Positions 30,481 through 36,193 of a DNA stretch of 64,000 nt are shown here, in pieces; position 1 is the first letter of the stretch, and each line of letters starts with the position of its first letter. A model generated the notes under the pieces. That model saw only the letters and a program-made list of their open reading frames with translations, had not been told where the DNA came from and did no database searches. A program made the translations under genes and the position numbers. This stretch comes from Escherichia phage vB_VIPECOMC06. The stretch lies in sequence record PQ416618.1. One strand, 5' to 3'.

Positions 30481-31473
30481 ATGTTACCTGTCATCAGAAA
30501 ACTTATTTCTCCAAAAGAACTGGCTGAGATTATTCCTTTGTCGGAAGCTTACGCATCACAAGTGGCTTCTCATCGCGAACAAGTTAATTCGATTATGAAC
30601 GGTGAAGACCCACGCAAACTTATTGTTGTAGGTCCTTGTTCAATTCATGACCCTATTGCTGCTGTTGAATACGGCAAACGTCTGGCTGAACTTCAAACTC
30701 GTCTTCCTAATGTTCTGTTAGTGATGCGCGTTTATTTTGAAAAGCCTCGAACTACCGTAGGTTGGAAAGGTCTTGTAAATGATCCATATCTTGACGGAAG
30801 TTTTGATATGAACCACGGTCTTATAGTTGCACGAACATTGTGTCGTAAACTTCTACGCATGGGACTTCCATTAGCAACTGAAGTATTAGACCCATTCACG
30901 ATTAAGTATCTTTCTGGTATTTTCTCATGGGTTGCTATTGGCGCCCGTACGACTGAAAGTCAGACACATCGTGAAATTGCTTCAGGTCTACCGATGTGCG
31001 TAGGCTTCAAGAACGCAACCAATGGTTCTATTAAAGTAGCTACAGACGCGATGTATAGTGCCGCCTGGCCTCATCGGTATATGGGTATGGACGTCGATGG
31101 TACTGTAGGCATTGTTGAAGCTGAAGGTAATCAGAATACGCATATCGTATTGCGTGGCGGGACTAACGGCCCGAACTATCATTCTTCTGATATTCAAGAA
31201 GCTTCTAACAAAGCAAGTGCATTAGGTCTGAATCATTATGTAATGGTTGACTGTAGCCATGCAAACGCTGATGGGTATTATAGCAATCAAATTGGTATTG
31301 GTAAAAATTTAGCAGCTAATGATTTGGTCAAAGGAATTATGATAGAATCATTCCTACATGAAGGAAATCAAAAAATTTCTGATAATATGTCCTATGGCGT
31401 TTCCGTTACCGATGCGTGCATCAGTTGGGAACAAACTAAAGAGCTGTTAACTTATATTAATAAGGTTCAATAA
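30481..31473 (+). CDS. 3-deoxy-D-arabino-heptulosonate-7-phosphate (DAHP) synthase, class I (AroG/AroF/AroH-like)
   Basis: 330 aa; colinear with E. coli AroG: …VVGPCSIHD…, MRVYFEKPRTTVGWKGLVNDP, GARTTESQTHRE, DCSHAN, MIESFLHEGNQ, SVTDACI; all four metal-ligand positions (Cys, His, Glu, Asp) present; TAATG coupling to cd. Confidence 0.9.
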   Translation: MLPVIRKLISPKELAEIIPLSEAYASQVASHREQVNSIMNGEDPRKLIVVGPCSIHDPIAAVEYGKRLAELQTRLPNVLLVMRVYFEKPRTTVGWKGLVNDPYLDGSFDMNHGLIVARTLCRKLLRMGLPLATEVLDPFTIKYLSGIFSWVAIGARTTESQTHREIASGLPMCVGFKNATNGSIKVATDAMYSAAWPHRYMGMDVDGTVGIVEAEGNQNTHIVLRGGTNGPNYHSSDIQEASNKASALGLNHYVMVDCSHANADGYYSNQIGIGKNLAANDLVKGIMIESFLHEGNQKISDNMSYGVSVTDACISWEQTKELLTYINKVQ

Positions 31474-32054
31474 TGAAAGCTAGCACATATCTTCAAATTG
31501 CTTATTTGATTTCTCAAGAATCAAAATGTTGTTCATGGAAAGTTGGTGCCGTCATTGAAAAAGATGGACGCATTATCTCTACTGGATATAATGGCTCACC
31601 AGCAGGTGGCGTTAACTGTTGTGAACATGCATCCGAAAATGGTTGGTTGAAGAATAAACCAAGCCCGGTCATCGTTGCTGGACATAAAGAAGGCACTACG
31701 GCATTTGGACGGGCAGATAATTTTGTTTTGGCTAAAGAACATCGGGCCGCTCATAGTGCATGGTCTGCTAATAATGAAATCCATGCGGAATTGAACGCAA
31801 TTTTGTTTGCAGCTCGTAAAGGTAATTCTATTGAAGGTGCTACGTTATATACGACGCTTTCTCCGTGTCCTGATTGCACTAAAGCTATTACGCAGTCAGG
31901 TATTAAAAAGGTTGTATACGCAGAATTATATGACAGATCTCCTGAAAATTGGGCAGACATTCTAAAACAAGCCGGTATTGAAGTAATTCAGTACTCTCGT
32001 AATAATCTTCGTTCTCTGAATTGGGAACAAATCCGAAACTTTTGTGGTGAATAA
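31473..32054 (+). CDS. cd: dCMP deaminase
   Basis: 193 aa; MKASTYLQIAYLISQESKCCSWKVGAVIEK…HAE…SPCPDC matches T4 Cd. Confidence 0.95.
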   Translation: MKASTYLQIAYLISQESKCCSWKVGAVIEKDGRIISTGYNGSPAGGVNCCEHASENGWLKNKPSPVIVAGHKEGTTAFGRADNFVLAKEHRAAHSAWSANNEIHAELNAILFAARKGNSIEGATLYTTLSPCPDCTKAITQSGIKKVVYAELYDRSPENWADILKQAGIEVIQYSRNNLRSLNWEQIRNFCGE

Positions 32055-32055
32055 T

Positions 32056-32352
32056 ATGATTTTAACTGAACAAGAAACTATGGTTCTTCGTGAACGTATT
32101 AAAACTATTCTATCTGTAGGCGTTCATTGTGTTGTATTTGAAAAGGCTAACGGCGAGGTACGCACTATGTTTGCTTCGCGCGATGAACTTGAAGTCAAAT
32201 ATGAAAATAACAATCCAGCAACAGAAGTTCGTTATGAACCTCGTGAATCAGTTCGAGCATTCGATACCAAGTTAGGCCAGTGGCGTTCTTTCCGCCTTGA
32301 TAAAGTAATTTCGGTTGATGGTACTCCGGTGGAACGTTTGCTTCTTATGTAA
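32056..32352 (+). CDS. Hypothetical protein, about 98 aa
   Basis: ATG at 32056 (track ORF begins at alternative start 32044). Confidence 0.55.
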   Translation: MILTEQETMVLRERIKTILSVGVHCVVFEKANGEVRTMFASRDELEVKYENNNPATEVRYEPRESVRAFDTKLGQWRSFRLDKVISVDGTPVERLLLM

Positions 32353-32380
32353 TATGCTTTACGAATAGTATGGTATTATT
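32353..32380 (+). promoter_or_regulatory. Middle promoter (MotA box) upstream of gene 31
   Basis: ATATGCTTTA MotA-box-like element followed about 12 bp later by TATTAT -10. Confidence 0.5.
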
Positions 32381-32409
32381 AATCTATCGTCAAACAACAA
32401 GGAAATAAG

Positions 32410-32742
32410 ATGTCTGAAGTACAACTCCCAATTCGTGCTGTTGGTGAATATGTCATTCTGGTTTCTGAACCCGCTCAAGCAGGCGATGAAGAAGTTACAG
32501 AATCAGGACTTGTGATTGGTAAACGTGTTCAAGGTGAAGTTCCTGAACTATGTGTAGTTCATTCTGTAGGTCCTGATGTTCCTGAAGGTTTTGTTGAAGT
32601 CGGTGATTTGACTCCACTACCAGTTGGACAAATTCGAAATGTTCCGCATCCATTTGTGGCTTTAGGTCTTAAACAACCTAAAGAAATTAAACAGAAATTC
32701 GTAACATGTCACTATAAAGCTATTCCATGTCTTTATAAGTGA
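32410..32742 (+). CDS. 31: Co-chaperonin gp31 (GroES functional analogue)
   Basis: 110 aa; essentially identical to T4 gp31 ([33 protein letters not shown]…). Confidence 0.95.
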
Positions 32743-32752
32743 TATAAATAAC

Positions 32753-32760
32753 TATATGAA
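32753..32760 (+). promoter_or_regulatory. Late promoter upstream of rIII
   Basis: TATAAATA on plus strand after gene 31. Confidence 0.5.
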
Positions 32761-32866
32761 GAGAACACTCTTCTAAGCGGTAGCCTACAACTGAGAGACT
32801 TGTCGAAAGAAGGTGAAATTCAGAAGAACGTGGCTACTAAATATTATCTCGAATTGAGAATTTAAA

Positions 32867-33115
32867 ATGATTAAACAATTACAACACGCTCTTGAACTGC
32901 AACGCCATGCATGGAATAATGGCCATGACAATTACGGTGCATCTATTGATGTTGAAGCCGAAGCTCTTGAAATCTTACAGTATTTCAAACATCTGAATCC
33001 AGCACAAGCCGATCTTCGCGATATCCTGGTCCAGAAAGATGAATTGAAATATGCTAAGCCTCTGGCTTCTGCAGCACGTAAAGCAGTTCGTCATTTTGTT
33101 ATTACTTTGAAATAA
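32867..33115 (+). CDS. rIII: Lysis inhibition accessory protein RIII
   Basis: 82 aa; MIKQLQHALELQRHAWNNGHDNYG… matches T4 RIII. Confidence 0.9.
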   Translation: MIKQLQHALELQRHAWNNGHDNYGASIDVEAEALEILQYFKHLNPAQADLRDILVQKDELKYAKPLASAARKAVRHFVITLK

Positions 33116-33278
33116 TTACTACCATGCGTCAGCAAAATGTTAGCTGTGTAAGTCATGGTAGGTATGATGACGGGTTTACGGTTATCCTGTCGTTAAATAT
33201 CCAAAACCTATGTTCCCCTTGAGGGCTTGAGCAGGCAATGTCAATAAGTCCTGCATTTTCATTTAAAGAGAATTTATA

Positions 33279-33458
33279 ATGGCAAAACAAGCTAAAGCAA
33301 AGAAAGCAGTCGAAAAGAAAGTTGATGGTACCTCTAAACGCGCTGGATACAAGCGTGGGTCGAACTATCGTATTAATCAAACCGTTGAGAAGATCATGCG
33401 CAGAGCACGTGCAGTTCTTCGAGATGATGCTTCTCGTTTTGGAAAGGTTGTTGCATAA
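33279..33458 (+). CDS. Small basic protein, 59 aa (below ORF-track cutoff)
   Basis: MAKQAKAKKAVEKKVDGTSKRAGYKRGSNYRINQTVEKIMRRARAVLRDDASRFGKVVA; followed directly by a UUCG terminator hairpin; explains locus better than antisense track ORF 33153..33380. Confidence 0.5.
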   Translation: MAKQAKAKKAVEKKVDGTSKRAGYKRGSNYRINQTVEKIMRRARAVLRDDASRFGKVVA

Positions 33459-33463
33459 TTTTA

Positions 33464-33485
33464 GGGAGACTTCGGTCTCCCTTTT
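33464..33485 (+). terminator. Intrinsic terminator after small ORF 33279
   Basis: GGGAGACTTCGGTCTCCC + TTTTGTG. Confidence 0.7.
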
Positions 33486-33518
33486 GTGCGTTTAGGGCAG
33501 AAAAAGTTTAAAAAAGAT

Positions 33519-33551
33519 GTTTACTCTCCTGTAGGATGTGTTACTATAGAC
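33519..33551 (+). promoter_or_regulatory. Early promoter upstream of ORF 33589
   Basis: GTTTAC … GTTACTATAGAC. Confidence 0.65.
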
Positions 33552-33588
33552 TTGTACCACCTAATCAATAAAACAACCGGAGAATAAA

Positions 33589-33960
33589 ATGAACATTATC
33601 AATTTAAATGCTACAATTAAATGCCGTGACCATGATGGATATAAATCTCAAGTTGTTAACGAGTTACAGTGGATGGTTCGTTCAGTTCAAGGTGATGTGG
33701 TTTATTGTACAACTCCTGATGGCCCTTCAGACGATTTTTGTTATCATATCGAAATCGAAAACTTTTTCACTGGTGAAATTTACCGTCTGAATTCTACAGT
33801 TTATGGTTGTATTCGTTCTAAAACTTACGAAGATGAAGAGACTGGTTACTCTGAAGATGTTGTATGGTACGAAAATGCCAGAAATCGCGCAGAGGCATTA
33901 ATCGAGAAGATTAAAGCAAAAGGTGTTATCGATTCAGCTAAGTGGACAAAAATCAAATAA
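33589..33960 (+). CDS. Hypothetical early protein, 123 aa
   Basis: ORF with own early promoter and RBS GGAGAA. Confidence 0.6.
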   Translation: MNIINLNATIKCRDHDGYKSQVVNELQWMVRSVQGDVVYCTTPDGPSDDFCYHIEIENFFTGEIYRLNSTVYGCIRSKTYEDEETGYSEDVVWYENARNRAEALIEKIKAKGVIDSAKWTKIK

Positions 33961-33964
33961 AAAT

Positions 33965-34004
33965 GTTTACTTTGGTACAGGTTTTGTTATTATAGACCTG
34001 TACC
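33965..34004 (+). promoter_or_regulatory. Early promoter with stem-loop (PeSL-like) upstream of ORF 34035
   Basis: GTTTAC; -10 GTTATTATAGAC flanked by inverted repeat GGTACAGG / CCTGTACC. Confidence 0.65.
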
Positions 34005-34034
34005 AACAAACAACTTAAACATCTGGAGAATAAA

Positions 34035-34400
34035 ATGAACTACATCAACTTCGAACGTAAATATGTTTCTAACGGTATTGCTGGTTCTATTGATACGATT
34101 TGCTTATGGAAACATAATAACGGTTCAGTATGTGAAATTGAGCAGTATATGACTCCTAATTACGTTTATATGCGATTTGAAAATGGCATCACGGTTTCAA
34201 TCACGATGGAAGGTTCTACTTTTAAAATCGCTTTAGATGATGATTTCCGTCAACGTGATTTAGGTACCCATCCTTGCTGGAACGGCGTTAATCGTAAGCT
34301 TCTGGTTAAAACCTGGATTCGTCACATCCTGAGCAACCGAGCTAAACCTGAACATCTCGAAGCAATCTTTGATGTAGTTCTGAATGAATTCGATATCTAA
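34035..34400 (+). CDS. Hypothetical early protein, 121 aa
   Basis: ORF with own early promoter; followed by UUCG hairpin. Confidence 0.6.
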   Translation: MNYINFERKYVSNGIAGSIDTICLWKHNNGSVCEIEQYMTPNYVYMRFENGITVSITMEGSTFKIALDDDFRQRDLGTHPCWNGVNRKLLVKTWIRHILSNRAKPEHLEAIFDVVLNEFDI

Positions 34401-34410
34401 TCTTAAAAAT

Positions 34411-34430
34411 GGAGGCTTCGGCCTCCTTTG
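34411..34430 (+). terminator. Hairpin/terminator after ORF 34035
   Basis: GGAGGCTTCGGCCTCC + TTTG. Confidence 0.55.
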
Positions 34431-34441
34431 AGGAAAATATT

Positions 34442-34729
34442 ATGTTTATGACCACTTATTTCGATACTCGTAAAAATTTCTGTGAAGTTGTTTTCTCTAA
34501 AGCTGGTAAAGACGTTCCTGCCGACAAACAACCTACTCGTGAATCTATTAAGGCTTATGCTGATGTTGTATGCCCGGTAGAATTCCGTACTGTTAATGGA
34601 CGTGATACCCTGGCAATCACTAAGCTCAACCGTGACATCAATATCGACCCAAGTGTCGCCCGTGAAGTCAATACCTCTGACATCTATGGTGGTAATGTTA
34701 AATCACACGGCTTTCAGATGAGGTTCTAA
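34442..34729 (+). CDS. Hypothetical protein, about 95 aa
   Basis: ATG at 34442 after GAGGAAAA; track start 34409 would read through the terminator hairpin. Confidence 0.5.
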   Translation: MFMTTYFDTRKNFCEVVFSKAGKDVPADKQPTRESIKAYADVVCPVEFRTVNGRDTLAITKLNRDINIDPSVAREVNTSDIYGGNVKSHGFQMRF

Positions 34730-34923
34730 TGCAACTATTCTTATCACAAACAGTCCAGTTAAAAGGCATAGGTATTCCTGGAATGATTTCAAAGGTTCTA
34801 CCTGCTTTTAAATTAGGTAATGTTACTATTAAAAAAGCCTACGCCGTCTTATGGGTCGATGGAACTGAAGACGTTCGCATGAGTTCTGAATTAGAAGTTA
34901 TCAAAAACCTTAAAAGACTATGA
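34729..34923 (+). CDS. Hypothetical protein, 64 aa
   Basis: ORF with coupled stops and starts. Confidence 0.4.
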   Translation: MQLFLSQTVQLKGIGIPGMISKVLPAFKLGNVTIKKAYAVLWVDGTEDVRMSSELEVIKNLKRL

Positions 34924-35372
34924 TTGAAATCAGAAGCAATTTTCCATGGCCGTCATGTGCATTAAGTAACTTTGCTAAATGGCCTTTTGTTATGGATGGT
35001 ATTCAATTCGGAGGTCTTGAAGGATTTCTCCAAGGATGTAAGGTGAAAAATATTGAACAACAAAAACGTATATTTGGGTTGTCCGGATTGGCTGCACAGC
35101 AAGCTGGAAGGTCTTATGCAAGAGCTCAGGACCGTGGGACTCTCTTCTGGTTAGGAGTTCCATTTTCAAGATACTCCGAAGCGTGGAAAGAATTATACAC
35201 AAATGCATATTTTGAAGCCGCGATCCAAAACAAGGGGTTTCGTGATGCCTTACAAGCCTCTAAAGGAAAAATTTTGAAGCACAGCATGGCTAGCGGTCTA
35301 ACAAAAGATGATACAATACTAACCGAAGCTGAATTTATTGATGTGTTAAACCTATTAAGAGACTCTTTATGA
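34920..35372 (+). CDS. NADAR-family (YbiA/DUF1768-like) protein
   Basis: 150 aa; …LSNFAKWPFVMDGIQFGGLEGFLQGCKV… and C-terminal helical region align in pattern with E. coli YbiA (FSNFAAWPIKVDGKTWPTSEHYFQAQKF…). Confidence 0.6.
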   Translation: MIEIRSNFPWPSCALSNFAKWPFVMDGIQFGGLEGFLQGCKVKNIEQQKRIFGLSGLAAQQAGRSYARAQDRGTLFWLGVPFSRYSEAWKELYTNAYFEAAIQNKGFRDALQASKGKILKHSMASGLTKDDTILTEAEFIDVLNLLRDSL

Positions 35373-36193
35373 AACCTACTATTTTGACCGATATTGATGG
35401 TGTATGTTTAAGCTGGCAATCCGGACTTCCTTATTTTGCCCAAAAATATAATCTTCCATTAGAACATATTTTAAAAATGATTCAGGACGAAAAATTTATT
35501 TCTCCTGGTAAACTATTCAATACCGACGATAACCTTGGTAAACAATTAATAGAAAAATATAATAGCTCTGATTTTATTCGTTACTTAGCGCCTTATTCAG
35601 ATGCTCTTCGAGTTATCAATAAACTAAAAGAAGACTATAATTTTGTAGCCGTGACGGCGCTAGGTGATTCAATTGATGCTCGATTGAATAGACAATTTAA
35701 TTTGAATGCTTTGTTCCCAGGCGCTTTCTCTGAAGTAATGATGTGTGGTCATGATTCTTCAAAGGAACAATTATTCGAACTAGCTAAAACAAAATATAAC
35801 GTGATTTGTTACGTTGACGATTTAGCTCATCACTGTGACCATGCAGCAGAAATTCTTAATGTACCGATTTATTGGTTGGCTCGAGGTGAACGTGATGCCA
35901 TTCCTCGTACTGCACAACGTGTACACACGTGGGATGATATTGAATCTCGTTTGGTTCCACCTGAGCATAAGTCAGGTTCAGATCGTGAAGACCTTTTAAA
36001 ACGATTGGCCGATTTGCTTAAAGAATCTGGTGCAACAAGTCCAGGTGCATGGCCTAATCAAATCGGCGGCCCCTCGACAACACGTACTCCATATACCTGG
36101 CGAACTCCAGGACCAACTGATATGCAGCCGTGGTGGACGATTCAAAACTTTCCTTTAGATTCGTCTAAATGGACTTGGTCTATAAATTGTTAA
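35369..36193 (+). CDS. HAD-superfamily phosphatase-like protein (5'(3')-nucleotidase-like N-terminal domain) with unusual Trp/Pro/Thr-rich C-terminal tail
   Basis: 274 aa; motif I DIDGV near N-terminus, later VDD motif; C-terminal 60 aa compositionally odd. Confidence 0.5.
   Translation: MKPTILTDIDGVCLSWQSGLPYFAQKYNLPLEHILKMIQDEKFISPGKLFNTDDNLGKQLIEKYNSSDFIRYLAPYSDALRVINKLKEDYNFVAVTALGDSIDARLNRQFNLNALFPGAFSEVMMCGHDSSKEQLFELAKTKYNVICYVDDLAHHCDHAAEILNVPIYWLARGERDAIPRTAQRVHTWDDIESRLVPPEHKSGSDREDLLKRLADLLKESGATSPGAWPNQIGGPSTTRTPYTWRTPGPTDMQPWWTIQNFPLDSSKWTWSINC

What the first reader, a model, noticed from the sequence alone, without database searches (positions are those of the whole stretch)
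33279..33458. Unannotated 59-aa highly basic protein gene overlapping a spurious antisense track ORF
The plus-strand ORF MAKQAKAKKAVEKKVDGTSKRAGYKRGSNYRINQ… ends 5 nt before a strong UUCG terminator hairpin, which supports it as the real gene rather than the 75-aa minus-strand ORF 33153..33380. The Lys/Arg-rich composition suggests a nucleic-acid-binding or internal-head-type protein. The 163-nt region upstream (33116..33278) is non-coding, with a GTTTAC-like element and GC-rich inverted repeats, and could hold a regulatory RNA or promoter.
Basis: seen in the sequence. Interest (0 to 1): 0.35.

Follow-up and report, generated by a model that had tools for sequence, protein, structure and literature searches.

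The report
T4 gene 30.9 behind pseudoknot RNA
The 59-codon reading frame is a real but already catalogued phage gene (T4 gene 30.9, function unknown); the more interesting result is that the non-coding stretch in front of it holds a small conserved RNA pseudoknot, absent from Rfam, that also turns up inside the tRNA gene clusters of unrelated phages.

Summary
The window comes from an RB69-like T4-type phage. ORF 33279-33458 (+) is the ortholog of T4 gene 30.9. It matches PHROG 1427 (E 1.5e-30), is annotated in T4, RB69 and most relatives, has homologs in 1003 phage records, and shows excess synonymous change. The antisense 75-aa ORF is a shadow whose open length varies from 20 to 115 codons among relatives.

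The UUCG hairpin plus T-run is a conserved terminator with compensatory stem changes. An early promoter for 30.8 follows it.

gp30.9 is a 6.6-kDa protein with pI 11.1: a disordered Lys/Ala tail, an invariant SKRAGYKRxSNxRI motif and one confident helix. It has no known fold or function. Nothing supports an internal-head role.

The 163-nt spacer is non-coding and carries no promoter; the GTTTAC lies in a hairpin loop. It is more conserved (88-95%) than synonymous sites (49-76%).

Its core (33164-33215) is an H-type pseudoknot. Across 39 distinct sequences 82.7% of cells pair versus 68.7% when shuffled, and both helices show compensatory changes. No Rfam family matches.

The same motif lies between tRNA genes in unrelated phage contigs, so it is probably an autonomous RNA module. 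Its function is unknown.

The parts
32867..33115 (+). rIII (lysis-inhibition accessory protein), the cistron upstream of the spacer
   Evidence: 82-aa ORF. Annotated rIII at the same place in RB69, T4 and NHEP10. rIII precedes 30.9 in 39 of 40 IMG/VR loci.
33119..33161 (+). P0 hairpin: CTACCATG/CATGGTAG with inner stem CAGC/GCTG; the loop ends in TAAGT
   Evidence: Present in the MFE and centroid folds. Compensatory variants occur in relatives: CAGA/TCTG, TCACG/CGTGG, and GCTCTA/TTAGAGC in L028. The module is absent from T4.
33164..33215 (+). P1 H-type pseudoknot motif. S1 is 33169-33174 with 33186-33191. The loop holds GTTTAC (33174-79). S2 is GGTT 33180-33183 with AACC 33205-33208. The A-rich linker is GTTAAATATCCAA, 33192-33204.
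   Evidence: CM R1 gives a single hit, 66.8 bits, E 3.5e-17. Covariation was tested on A3 and A7. G.U pairs on the + strand number 30 against 11 A.C. The same motif occurs in tRNA arrays of unrelated phages. In this window S2 is only 4 bp.
33215..33226 (+). P2 short hairpin CCCC-TTGA-GGG(C), followed by CTTG
   Evidence: Conserved across clades with variants CCCTTCGAGGG, CCTCTTAGAGGG, GCCTTCGAGGC and TCCCTTCGAGGA. Its position relative to P1 is permuted in L028, L034 and L038.
33231..33254 (+). P3 hairpin GCAGG/CCTGC with conserved loop CAATGTCAATAAGT
   Evidence: L030 and L035 keep the loop with a different stem, GAACTGG/CCAGTTC. Other clades replace it with larger hairpins.
33255..33273 (+). 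P4 weak hairpin ATTTTC/GAGAAT covering the Shine-Dalgarno-like GAGA (33268-33271)
   Evidence: Predicted. Occlusion of the SD is not statistically supported across relatives: mean pairing probability 0.69 versus 0.55 in controls, and only 2 of 31 sequences reach <=0.1.
33279..33458 (+). Gene 30.9: 59-aa basic protein (6.6 kDa, pI 11.1)
   Evidence: PHROG 1427, E 1.5e-30. Annotated gp30.9 in RB69 and T4. 64 homologous clusters. Invariant S19 K20 A22 K25 R26 S28 N29 R42 A43 R44 V46 F54. Synonymous changes exceed nonsynonymous. AlphaFold helix 30-54.
33463..33487 (+). Intrinsic terminator: A-GGGAGAC TTCG GTCTCCC-T, then TTTGTG
   Evidence: Sequence. Conserved directly after the stop codon in all relatives but one, with compensatory stems GGACTCC/GGAGTCC, GGGAACC/GGTTCCC and GGGGCTCC/GGAGCCCC.
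33519..33547 (+). T4-type early promoter for gene 30.8: GTTTAC, 17 nt, TACTAT, with an A-rich upstream stretch
   Evidence: Sequence. The same arrangement follows the terminator in most relatives. Downstream ORF 33589-33960 is Pfam Phage_30_8.
33153..33380 (-). Spurious antisense ORF (75 aa, TTG start), codon-in-phase shadow of gene 30.9 running into the spacer
   Evidence: In 43 relatives the equivalent open stretch varies from 20 to 115 codons and ends at different places, sometimes inside the CDS. Indels in the spacer break the frame. No PHROG match.

Best explanation
The locus is the end of the rIII-30.9 transcription unit of an RB69-like T4-type phage.

Shown:
- 33279-33458 encodes gp30.9, a small and very basic protein conserved in enterobacterial T4-like phages.
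- It is the last cistron of its unit. A conserved intrinsic terminator follows 5 nt after the stop codon, and an early promoter for 30.8 lies 33 nt beyond the terminator's T-run.
- No promoter lies in the 163-nt spacer, so 30.9 is read through from rIII. The late promoter TATAAATA lies upstream of rIII at 32743-32750.
- The spacer is a chain of conserved RNA hairpins. Its core is a roughly 50-nt H-type pseudoknot: a 6-7-bp stem, a loop that pairs with the sequence following a 13-16-nt A-rich linker, and an invariant CGU(U/A)AA junction.
- The same pseudoknot occurs, on the tRNA strand, between tRNA genes of unrelated phages.

Inferred:
- The pseudoknot is an autonomous RNA module rather than a device specific to gene 30.9. 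The likeliest roles are a factor-binding site or an end-defining, nuclease-blocking structure that is released or retained when the polycistronic RNA is processed.
- gp30.9 binds nucleic acid, probably RNA, through its SKRAGYKRxSNxRI motif and Arg-rich helix.

Neither inferred function has been demonstrated.
For: Gene identity:
- PHROG 1427, E 1.5e-30.
- RB69, T4 and NHEP10 annotate the same ORF.
- tblastn finds homologs in 1003 phage records, all enterobacterial T4-likes.
- Synonymous versus nonsynonymous changes are 20:8 against L010 and 14:7 against L006.
- The MAK/MSK start is shared by all relatives. T4's longer 97-aa frame is closed in the window by a stop at 33264-66.

Terminator and promoter.

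No promoter in the spacer.

Spacer under selection:
- 88-95% identity where synonymous codons are 49-76% identical.
- Indels exclude coding.

Pseudoknot:
- On A7, 39 distinct sequences give 82.7% paired cells versus 68.7% shuffled, and covariation 0.386 versus 0.166 (0 of 500 shuffles reach it). Slid controls reach at most 47%.
- S1 pair 8-30 is UA24/AU12/CG2/GC1. S2 pair 19-48 is GC26/AU12.
- Cognate loop-tail helices are longer than non-cognate ones (6.4 versus 5.3 bp; no permutation reached it, p<5e-5).
- G.U exceeds A.C, 30 to 11.

Autonomy of the module:
- R1 hits lie between tRNA-Ala and tRNA-Pro (L123, two copies), between tRNA-Asp and tRNA-Pro (L133), right after tRNA-Met (L140), and between tRNA-Gly and tRNA-Thr (L209). 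Other hits lie in long non-coding stretches (L113, L120, L137, L144, L146).
- L104 and L105 have rIII and a 44-aa 30.9 with no spacer. L094 keeps the spacer although the 30.9 core is replaced.

Protein: pI 11.1 and one confident helix.
Against: - No experiment was seen for either function. The only paper on 30.9 expression (Driukas and Nivinskas 2003, cited in PMC9409239) is not in the library.
- In this window the second helix of the pseudoknot is only 4 bp (GGTT/AACC). A competing 6-bp pairing, GGGTTT/AAACCT, exists.
- The whole spacer is not significantly more stable than shuffles (z -1.5).
- The CM alignment is fitted to S1, and the sequences are related, so shuffle statistics overstate significance. 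The slid controls and multiple pair types are the stronger evidence.
- I did not check whether gp30.9 homologs exist elsewhere in the phages that carry the motif in tRNA arrays.
- 'Early' for T4 30.9 rests on my reading of a supplementary-table column.
Confidence: 0.8

Rival explanations
1. The pseudoknotted spacer is a translational operator. gp30.9 binds its own leader and represses its own translation, as T4 gp32 does at the pseudoknot of its leader.
For: A basic, probably RNA-binding protein sits directly behind a conserved pseudoknot in nearly all T4-likes that have both. A small hairpin can cover the SD in several clades using different sequences: ATTTTC/GAGAAT, CTCC/GGAAG and CCTC/GAGG. 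T4 uses autogenous translational control for gp32, gp43 and RegA (established knowledge).
Against: - The motif stands between tRNA genes in unrelated phages with no ORF to control.
- L104 and L105 have 30.9 abutting rIII without any leader. L094 keeps the leader without the 30.9 core.
- P1 lies 60 to more than 300 nt from the RBS.
- SD occlusion is not significant.
Confidence: 0.15
2. The pseudoknot is a small-molecule riboswitch aptamer, a distant relative of preQ1-I: an H-type pseudoknot with an A-rich tail.
For: The topology is the same: stem, loop pairing with the 3' tail, A-rich linker. Junction nucleotides are strongly conserved. The association with tRNA genes could fit a tRNA-modification metabolite.
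Against: - No Rfam riboswitch model matches, even at E<=1.
- The linker is twice as long as in preQ1-I.
- No expression platform is present. The SD is not part of the second helix, there is no terminator next to the motif, and no ORF follows it in tRNA arrays.
Confidence: 0.07
3. The spacer has no RNA function. Its inverted repeats are DNA-level debris or recombination substrates of the modular shuffling typical of T4 early regions.
For: Modules are gained, lost and permuted between genomes. 'Module K' sits upstream of rIII in some genomes and upstream of 30.9 in others. One hairpin is inverted between L034 and L037.
Against: - Non-coding identity exceeds synonymous-site identity.
- A pseudoknot (non-nested pairing) is maintained by compensatory changes.
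- G.U pairs favour the transcribed strand, 30 to 11.
- The motif always lies on the tRNA strand in tRNA arrays.
Confidence: 0.08
4. gp30.9 is a packaged internal head protein.
For: It is small and very basic. The late promoter upstream of rIII (32743-50) could also give late transcripts.
Against: - There is no LxE/IxE prohead-protease site.
- The T4 ortholog is classed early.
- It lies in the early 'hyperplastic' 30.x region with early promoters on both sides.
- It is not among the known T4 head contents (own knowledge).
Confidence: 0.03
5. The minus-strand 75-aa ORF 33153-33380 is the real gene.
For: It is longer than the plus-strand ORF.
Against: Its open length varies from 20 to 115 codons in relatives and is cut inside the CDS in several. 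It has a TTG start, no family match, runs against the direction of all neighbouring genes, and spacer indels break its frame.
Confidence: 0.01

Closest known systems
Bacteriophage T4 gene 30.9 (GenBank AAD42450, 58 aa; Swiss-Prot P17310 'uncharacterized 11.1 kDa protein in Gp30-rIII intergenic region'); RB69 gp30.9 AAP76119; PHROG 1427
   Same: Same position (rIII, spacer, 30.9, terminator, 30.8), same start, and 91-97% identity over the core. The window protein differs from RB69 by one residue.
   Different: Nothing essential; this is the ortholog. The 97-aa Swiss-Prot model of T4 extends into the spacer. That extension is closed by a stop in this window and is not conserved.
Promoter-early stem-loop (PeSL) cassettes of T4-type genomes (Arbiol et al. 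2010; from memory, not read here)
   Same: A terminator-like stem-loop directly followed by an early promoter between small early genes (33463-33547), with the same layout in relatives.
   Different: This describes only the 3' flank of 30.9. The upstream spacer has no promoter and is a different kind of element.
T4/T2 gene 32 mRNA leader pseudoknot (autoregulatory nucleation site)
   Same: An H-type pseudoknot in the untranslated leader of a T4 early/middle gene that encodes a nucleic-acid-binding protein.
   Different: There is no sequence relation. The motif here lies far from the RBS, also occurs outside mRNAs (in tRNA arrays), and binding by gp30.9 is untested.
preQ1-I riboswitch aptamer (Rfam RF00522)
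   Same: A compact H-type pseudoknot with a short first loop and an A-rich strand that crosses the first stem.
   Different: No CM match. The stem is longer (6-7 bp with a bulge), the linker is 13-16 nt, the conserved nucleotides differ, and there is no SD in helix 2.
T4 stable RNAs rnaC and rnaD (species 1 and 2) in the tRNA gene cluster
   Same: Small non-tRNA RNAs embedded in a phage tRNA array and of unknown function. This is the kind of setting in which the motif is found in other phages.
   Different: The covariance model does not match the T4 rnaC/rnaD region: best 11 bits, E 0.21.

Membership tests
T4 gp30.9 family (PHROG 1427) | Significant match to the family profile over the whole protein | tested here: met
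   E 1.5e-30, residues 1-57 on profile 11-66 of 75. 64 homologous clusters at E<=1e-3.
T4 gp30.9 family (PHROG 1427) | Synteny: downstream of rIII, upstream of 30.8, same strand | tested here: met
   30.8, 30.7 and 30.3 are confirmed by Pfam.
T4 gp30.9 family (PHROG 1427) | Invariant SKRAGYKRxSNxRI motif followed by the RARxV helix | tested here: met
   Alignments A1 and A4. The window has S19 K20 R21 A22 G23 Y24 K25 R26.
Intrinsic (Rho-independent) terminator | G+C-rich stem, short loop, T-run immediately 3', conserved by compensatory change | tested here: met
   7-8 bp stem, UUCG loop and TTTTGTG tail. Four different stem sequences occur in relatives. The simple scanner missed it.
T4 early / sigma-70 promoter at the GTTTAC of 33174-33179 | -10 hexamer 16-18 nt downstream and conservation of the -35 element | tested here: not met
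   No site was reported there. 17 nt downstream reads ATATCC. Relatives have GTTTAT, GTTGTT, GTTGTA or GTTGGT. The hexamer lies in the loop of stem S1.
T4 internal head proteins (IPI-III type) | N-terminal targeting peptide ending in an LxE/IxE prohead-protease site | tested here: not met
   No LxE or IxE anywhere in the 59 residues.
T4 internal head proteins (IPI-III type) | Presence in virions | not testable with these tools
   Needs virion proteomics.
preQ1-I riboswitch (RF00522) and every other Rfam 15 family | Covariance-model match | tested here: not met
   No family overlaps the motif at E<=1 in the window or in T4-like loci, nor at E<=0.01 in L113, L120 and L123 or E<=1 in L133, L137 and L140.
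H-type pseudoknot (structural class) | Two helices in which the loop of helix 1 pairs with sequence 3' of helix 1, each supported by covariation | tested here: met
   Helix 1 is 91.3% paired, with 4 of 6 pairs changed on both sides. Helix 2 is 76.8% paired, with 5 of 9 pairs changed on both sides. Slid controls reach at most 47%.
Autoregulatory leader of the T4 gene 32 type | The gene's own product binds the leader and represses translation | not testable with these tools
   Needs binding and reporter assays. Natural variants argue against a strict dependence.
tRNA, tmRNA, and T4 rnaC/rnaD | Detection by ARAGORN; match of the motif model to rnaC/rnaD | tested here: not met
   No tRNA in 31000-36000. 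R1 finds nothing in the T4 tRNA region.

The most novel reading that the evidence does not exclude
The roughly 50-nt pseudoknot at 33164-33215 is the founding example of an undescribed class of phage small structured RNAs. In this reading it is an autonomous module that phages place either in the rIII-30.9 spacer (T4-like phages) or as an extra 'slot' in tRNA arrays, often abutting tRNA-Pro. There it would be cut out with the tRNAs and act in trans, for example as a decoy or binding partner for a host or phage factor that deals with tRNA-like RNA. Its invariant CGU(U/A)AA junction resembles GUU and GUA anticodon loops. gp30.9 might be its protein partner in T4-like phages.
Probability: 0.35. 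Interest if true: 0.75.

Novelty: new member of a known kind. Interest (0 to 1): 0.45.

Why it matters
The gene call itself only corrects an annotation track: gene 30.9 has been listed in T4 since the 1990s, with no function.

What could matter is the spacer. T4 is the best-studied phage, yet the rIII-30.9 intergenic region holds a covarying pseudoknot that is under stronger constraint than synonymous sites and is not in Rfam. The same motif recurs between tRNA genes of unrelated phages, including a 381-kb contig.

That points to a portable RNA element with a function of its own: factor binding, processing or decoy. T4 genetics can test this directly. It also gives the orphan protein gp30.9 a concrete candidate partner.

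Tried and rejected
Protein searches that found nothing:
- Pfam and NCBIfam gave no hit for gp30.9.
- A PDB sequence profile gave only a chance SlmA helix match, E 0.5.
- Foldseek of the AlphaFold model against the PDB found nothing.
- An exhaustive profile search of 1.84 billion cluster representatives found only 13 proteins, all of the same family.
- Distant homologs P0071 and P0072 lie in phage-like contexts that add no functional clue.

RNA searches that found nothing:
- Rfam had no family for the spacer or for any motif instance.
- ARAGORN found no tRNA.
- T4 rnaC and rnaD are unrelated to the motif.

Ideas tested and dropped:
- A promoter in the spacer: rejected (plus non-conservation of the GTTTAC).
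- SD occlusion by hairpin P4: not significant.
- That the recurrent loop motif TAAG(T/A)C pairs with the GGCTTG that follows P2. RNAalifold proposes this, but the variable position does not covary (G-A and A-A mismatches in L030, L035 and L028), so it was dropped.
- Small ORFs 33124-33222 and 33486-33587, annotated in NHEP10. They have no family match, and the start region of the first is missing in T4.
- Two 24-bit CM hits in bacterial MAGs (L157, L196) lie in coding sequence and were discarded.

Literature: nothing on gp30.9 function or on RNA structure in this spacer.
Full report
WHERE WE ARE. The window is from an RB69-like (Mosigvirus) T4-type phage. Megablast of 32800-33700 finds 701 phage records; the best are 98.8% identical (Escherichia phages NHEP10, NHEP11 and NHEP36) and RB69 is 94% identical. 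On the + strand the genes run in the T4 early direction:
- cd, 31473-32054
- 31.1, 32044-32352
- 31, 32410-32742
- rIII, 32867-33115
- a 163-nt gap
- the ORF in question, 33279-33458
- 30.8, 33589-33960
- 30.7, 30.6 and onward to 30.3

THE OBSERVATION. All stated features are present.
- The 59-aa ORF has the quoted translation.
- Its TAA (33456-58) is followed after 5 nt by GGGAGAC-TTCG-GTCTCCC and then TTTTGTG.
- A 75-aa TTG-started ORF lies on the minus strand at 33153-33380.
- GTTTAC is at 33174-79, and there are several inverted repeats.
- The protein has 10 Lys and 8 Arg, net charge +13, pI 11.1, 6.6 kDa.

THE GENE IS REAL AND ALREADY KNOWN.
- The ORF matches PHROG 1427 at E 1.5e-30.
- It is annotated as gp30.9 in RB69 (AAP76119) and T4 (AAD42450), and as a hypothetical protein in NHEP10 and most relatives.
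- A search of 5.8 billion proteins returns 64 clusters, all from T4-like phages of Escherichia, Klebsiella, Shigella, Enterobacter, Yersinia, Serratia, Cronobacter and Pectobacterium.
- tblastn finds it in 1003 phage records.
- An exhaustive profile search of 1.84 billion representatives finds only 13 proteins, so the family is narrow.
- Codon-level comparison shows purifying selection on the plus frame. Synonymous versus nonsynonymous differences are 20:8 against L010, 14:7 against L006 and 18:13 against L014.
- All relatives start at the same MAK/MSK. T4's longer 97-aa Swiss-Prot model (P0005) runs into the spacer. It is closed in this window by a TAA at 33264-66 and is not conserved.

THE ANTISENSE ORF IS A SHADOW. 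It is codon-in-phase with 30.9. In 43 relatives the equivalent open stretch ranges from 20 to 115 codons, ends at unrelated places and is interrupted inside the CDS in several.

WHAT THE PROTEIN LOOKS LIKE.
- Invariant residues cluster in SKRAGYKRxSNxRI (19-32) and RARxV (42-46). The Lys/Ala-rich N-terminus varies in length.
- AlphaFold2 with 39 sequences gives mean pLDDT 68.9, with one confident helix (residues 30-54, pLDDT about 88) and a low-confidence N-terminal third.
- There is no Pfam or NCBIfam family, no PDB sequence match beyond a chance helix and no Foldseek match.
- This is the profile of a small protein that orders on a nucleic acid, but that is inference.
- The internal-head idea finds no support. 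There is no LxE/IxE protease site. The gene lies in the early 30.x region. The T4 ortholog is listed as 'early' in the supplementary table of PMC9697503, although I inferred what that column means.
- The only paper on its expression (Driukas and Nivinskas 2003, Biologija) is cited in PMC9409239 but not held in the library. No paper in the library assigns a function.

THE 3' FLANK.
- In every relative but one the stop codon is followed within a few bases by a G+C-rich hairpin and a T-run.
- The stems differ by compensatory changes: GGGAGAC/GTCTCCC, GGACTCC/GGAGTCC, GGGAACC/GGTTCCC and GGGGCTCC/GGAGCCCC.
- In most relatives a T4 early promoter follows (GTTTAC, 17 nt, TAnnnT). In the window it is 33519-33524 and 33542-33547.
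- Gene 30.9 is therefore the terminal cistron of its unit. This flank has the layout I recall for the 'promoter-early stem-loop' cassettes of T4-type genomes.

THE 5' SPACER IS NON-CODING, HAS NO PROMOTER, AND IS UNDER SELECTION.
- Between T4, RB69 and the window, the 120 nt before the ATG are almost identical but differ by single-base indels. No frame on either strand is kept.
- Upstream of that, whole modules come and go. T4 and RB69 have about 100 nt that the window lacks, and the window and RB69 have a 45-nt hairpin that T4 lacks.
- Across 40 IMG/VR loci, rIII precedes 30.9 in 39. The gap is 120-416 nt, which is very long for these genomes.
- The spacer core is 88-95% identical between the window and relatives whose synonymous codons in rIII and 30.9 are only 49-76% identical.
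- The GTTTAC is not a promoter. The scanner reports no site there, 17 nt downstream reads ATATCC, and relatives have GTTTAT, GTTGTT, GTTGTA or GTTGGT.
- Transcription must therefore come from upstream of rIII, where TATAAATA (32743-50) marks a late promoter.

A PSEUDOKNOT.
- The conserved core (33164-33215) folds into stem S1 (GAC-G-GG / CC-T-GTC).
- Part of its 11-nt loop pairs with the bases that follow an A-rich linker (CGTTAAATATCCAAAA).
- In the window this second helix is only GGTT/AACC. In relatives it is longer and changes in a compensatory way:
  - CGTTGTTGGTT/AACCAACGGTG
  - TGTTCAAGGTT/AATCTTGGGTG
  - TTGTGAG/CTCACAA
  - TTGGTAG/CTACTAA
  - GATGG/CCATC
- On a MAFFT alignment of 27 distinct sequences the two helices give 81.5% paired cells against 68.6% in shuffles, and a covariation score of 0.339 against 0.149 (0 of 500). 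With partners slid by 1-3 columns only 31-50% of cells pair.
- On a covariance-model alignment of 39 distinct sequences the values are 82.7% against 68.7%, and 0.386 against 0.166. S1 pair 8-30 occurs as UA, AU, CG and GC. S2 pair 19-48 occurs as GC and AU.
- G.U pairs outnumber A.C 30 to 11, as expected for RNA of the + strand.
- The model (R1) hits the 64-kb window once, at 66.8 bits and E 3.5e-17, with the next best at 14 bits.
- No Rfam 15 family matches the spacer at E<=1.

THE REST OF THE SPACER.
- P0 (33119-61), P2 (33215-26) and P3 (33231-54) are hairpins with some compensatory variants in other clades.
- P3 is the most variable and is replaced by larger structures in Klebsiella-type phages.
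- A weak hairpin (33255-73) can cover the SD-like GAGA, and other clades have analogous CTCC/GGAAG or CCTC/GAGG pairings.
- Measured against shuffled upstream sequence, the SD is not significantly more paired: 0.69 versus 0.55, and 2 of 31 sequences at <=0.1. I do not rely on it.
- The spacer as a whole is not unusually stable (z -1.5).

THE MOTIF IS NOT TIED TO GENE 30.9. Two kinds of evidence bear on this.

Natural variants among T4-likes:
- L104 and L105 have rIII abutting a 44-aa 30.9 homolog (9-nt gap, no motif).
- L099, L100, L103 and L106 have rIII followed by another gene, with no 30.9 and no motif.
- L102 has rIII followed by a terminator.
- L094 keeps the spacer and motif (57.6 bits), but the 30.9 core is replaced by a 208-aa ORF fused to about 14 residual codons.

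Instances in unrelated phage contigs, found by pattern scans and confirmed with R1:
- Two tandem copies fill the gap between tRNA-Ala and tRNA-Pro in a 381-kb contig (L123, 40.5 and 26 bits).
- One copy lies between tRNA-Asp and tRNA-Pro in a 12-tRNA array (L133, 55 bits).
- One copy lies directly after tRNA-Arg and tRNA-Met (L140, 36 bits).
- One copy lies between tRNA-Gly and tRNA-Thr in a 10-tRNA array (L209, 42.5 bits).
- Others lie in long non-coding stretches. L113 and L120 score 61 bits; in L113 the motif is 78 nt upstream of tRNA-Pro. The rest are L137, L144 and L146.

All of these copies lie on the tRNA strand. They carry further compensatory variants: S1 as GCT/AGC, GAG/CTC and GTC/GAC, and S2 as ACAGTT/AACTGT, ACGTT/AACGT and TAAGTT/AACTTA. 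No Rfam family overlaps them.

A scan of 185,579 bacterial and archaeal genomes gave 56 pattern matches. Only three were confirmed, and all three look like phage tRNA arrays in MAG bins. The T4 stable RNAs rnaC and rnaD do not match.

HOW IT MOST LIKELY WORKS.

Shown: a real early gene for a small basic protein is read through from rIII, ended by a terminator, and preceded by a constrained RNA region whose core is a covarying pseudoknot that also exists as a free-standing unit in tRNA arrays.

Inferred:
- Because the motif keeps its structure with no ORF behind it, and because 30.9 can do without it, the pseudoknot is probably an autonomous module. The likeliest roles are a binding site for a host or phage factor, or a structure that defines or protects RNA ends during processing.
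- It is less likely to be an operator specific to 30.9. Autoregulation by gp30.9 remains possible in T4-likes (about 0.15).
- A riboswitch reading is weakened by the lack of any expression platform (about 0.07).
- A purely DNA-level origin is contradicted by the pseudoknot covariation, the strand bias of G.U pairs and the excess conservation (about 0.08).

VERDICT.
- The finding as written is an ordinary, already catalogued gene correctly preferred over an antisense artefact. Taken alone it is of low interest.
- The suggestion that the upstream region 'could hold a regulatory RNA' proved the valuable part. It holds a well-supported pseudoknot motif that is absent from Rfam, that I could not find in the held literature, and that is shared with tRNA arrays of unrelated phages.
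- Its function is unknown, and my distribution survey is limited to exact-pattern scans.

Noticed in passing
window 32743-32866 (gene 31 to rIII spacer): This spacer is structured as well. It holds the late promoter TATAAATA (32743-50), the hairpin GAAGAG/CTCTTC, and a 60-nt 'module K' (32779-32838) that reads GGTAGCC-TACAAC-[hairpin]-GAAGAACGTG-GCTACT. T4 has the compensatory closing stem GGTAGTC/GACTACC. A TCTC/GAGA hairpin lies over the rIII SD. Module K occurs once per genome, upstream of rIII in T4-, RB69- and window-type phages but upstream of 30.9 in Klebsiella-type phages (L006-9, L012, L021, L036, L039-41).
   Followed up: partly
window 30481-31473 (+): A 330-aa class I DAHP synthase (Pfam PF00793, E 2e-74) lies directly upstream of dCMP deaminase. 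This auxiliary metabolic gene is also annotated in NHEP10 but is absent at this position in RB69 and T4.
   Followed up: partly
window 32044-32352 (+), gene 31.1: gp31.1 matches Pfam WYL_2, an Sm-like SH3 beta-barrel (E 2e-9). This may be an RNA- or ligand-binding fold, in the same transcription unit as the structured spacers.
   Followed up: no
window 33124-33222 (+) and 33486-33587 (+): NHEP10 annotates 32- and 33-aa 'hypothetical proteins' here, inside the structured spacer and across the 30.8 early promoter. They have no family match, and the first loses its start region in T4. They are probably over-calls.
   Followed up: partly
public records matched: gp30.9 is mislabelled in several GenBank and UniRef records. 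It appears as '1,4-alpha-glucan (glycogen) branching enzyme, GH-13-type' in AV112, AV113, PHB12, pEK20, ZN18 and Klebsiella phage PMBT63, and as 'putative head morphogenesis protein' in a T2 record.
   Followed up: no
L094:1743-2533; L104:1735-1869; L105:1734-1868: These are natural variants of the locus. In L094 the 30.9 core is replaced by a 208-aa ORF that keeps the spacer and about 14 codons of 30.9. In L104 and L105 a 44-aa mini-30.9 (MSARKGYKRKTNKRINQ...) abuts rIII with no spacer but keeps the terminator and promoter.
   Followed up: partly
L034 and L037, last 60 nt before the 30.9 start: The hairpin before the SD is the exact inverse in the two genomes: GAGAGGT-CTTAC-ACCTCTC versus GAGAGGT-GTAAG-ACCTCTC. 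It looks as if the palindrome flipped at the DNA level.
   Followed up: no
L003 (T4) 130,541-130,784; L006, L021 and others; L144: A second conserved element containing AAATCG(A/G)G accompanies the pseudoknot in T4, in Klebsiella-type phages (within a module of about 135 nt) and in the unrelated contig L144. In L144 a promoter-like site, about 330 nt of non-coding sequence and a terminator look like a stand-alone ncRNA gene. The window lacks this element.
   Followed up: no
L123:4922-5119, L133:6720-6848, L113:8983-9189: In three unrelated contigs the pseudoknot motif lies immediately or closely 5' of a tRNA-Pro(UGG) gene. The invariant junction CGU(U/A)AA resembles GUU and GUA anticodon loops. 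The significance is unknown.
   Followed up: no
window 33463-33487: The consensus terminator scanner reported no terminator in 32300-34200, although the first 50 nt from the 30.9 stop codon, containing the UUCG hairpin and T-run, fold at -19 kcal/mol. This is a caution about that scan's criteria.
   Followed up: yes
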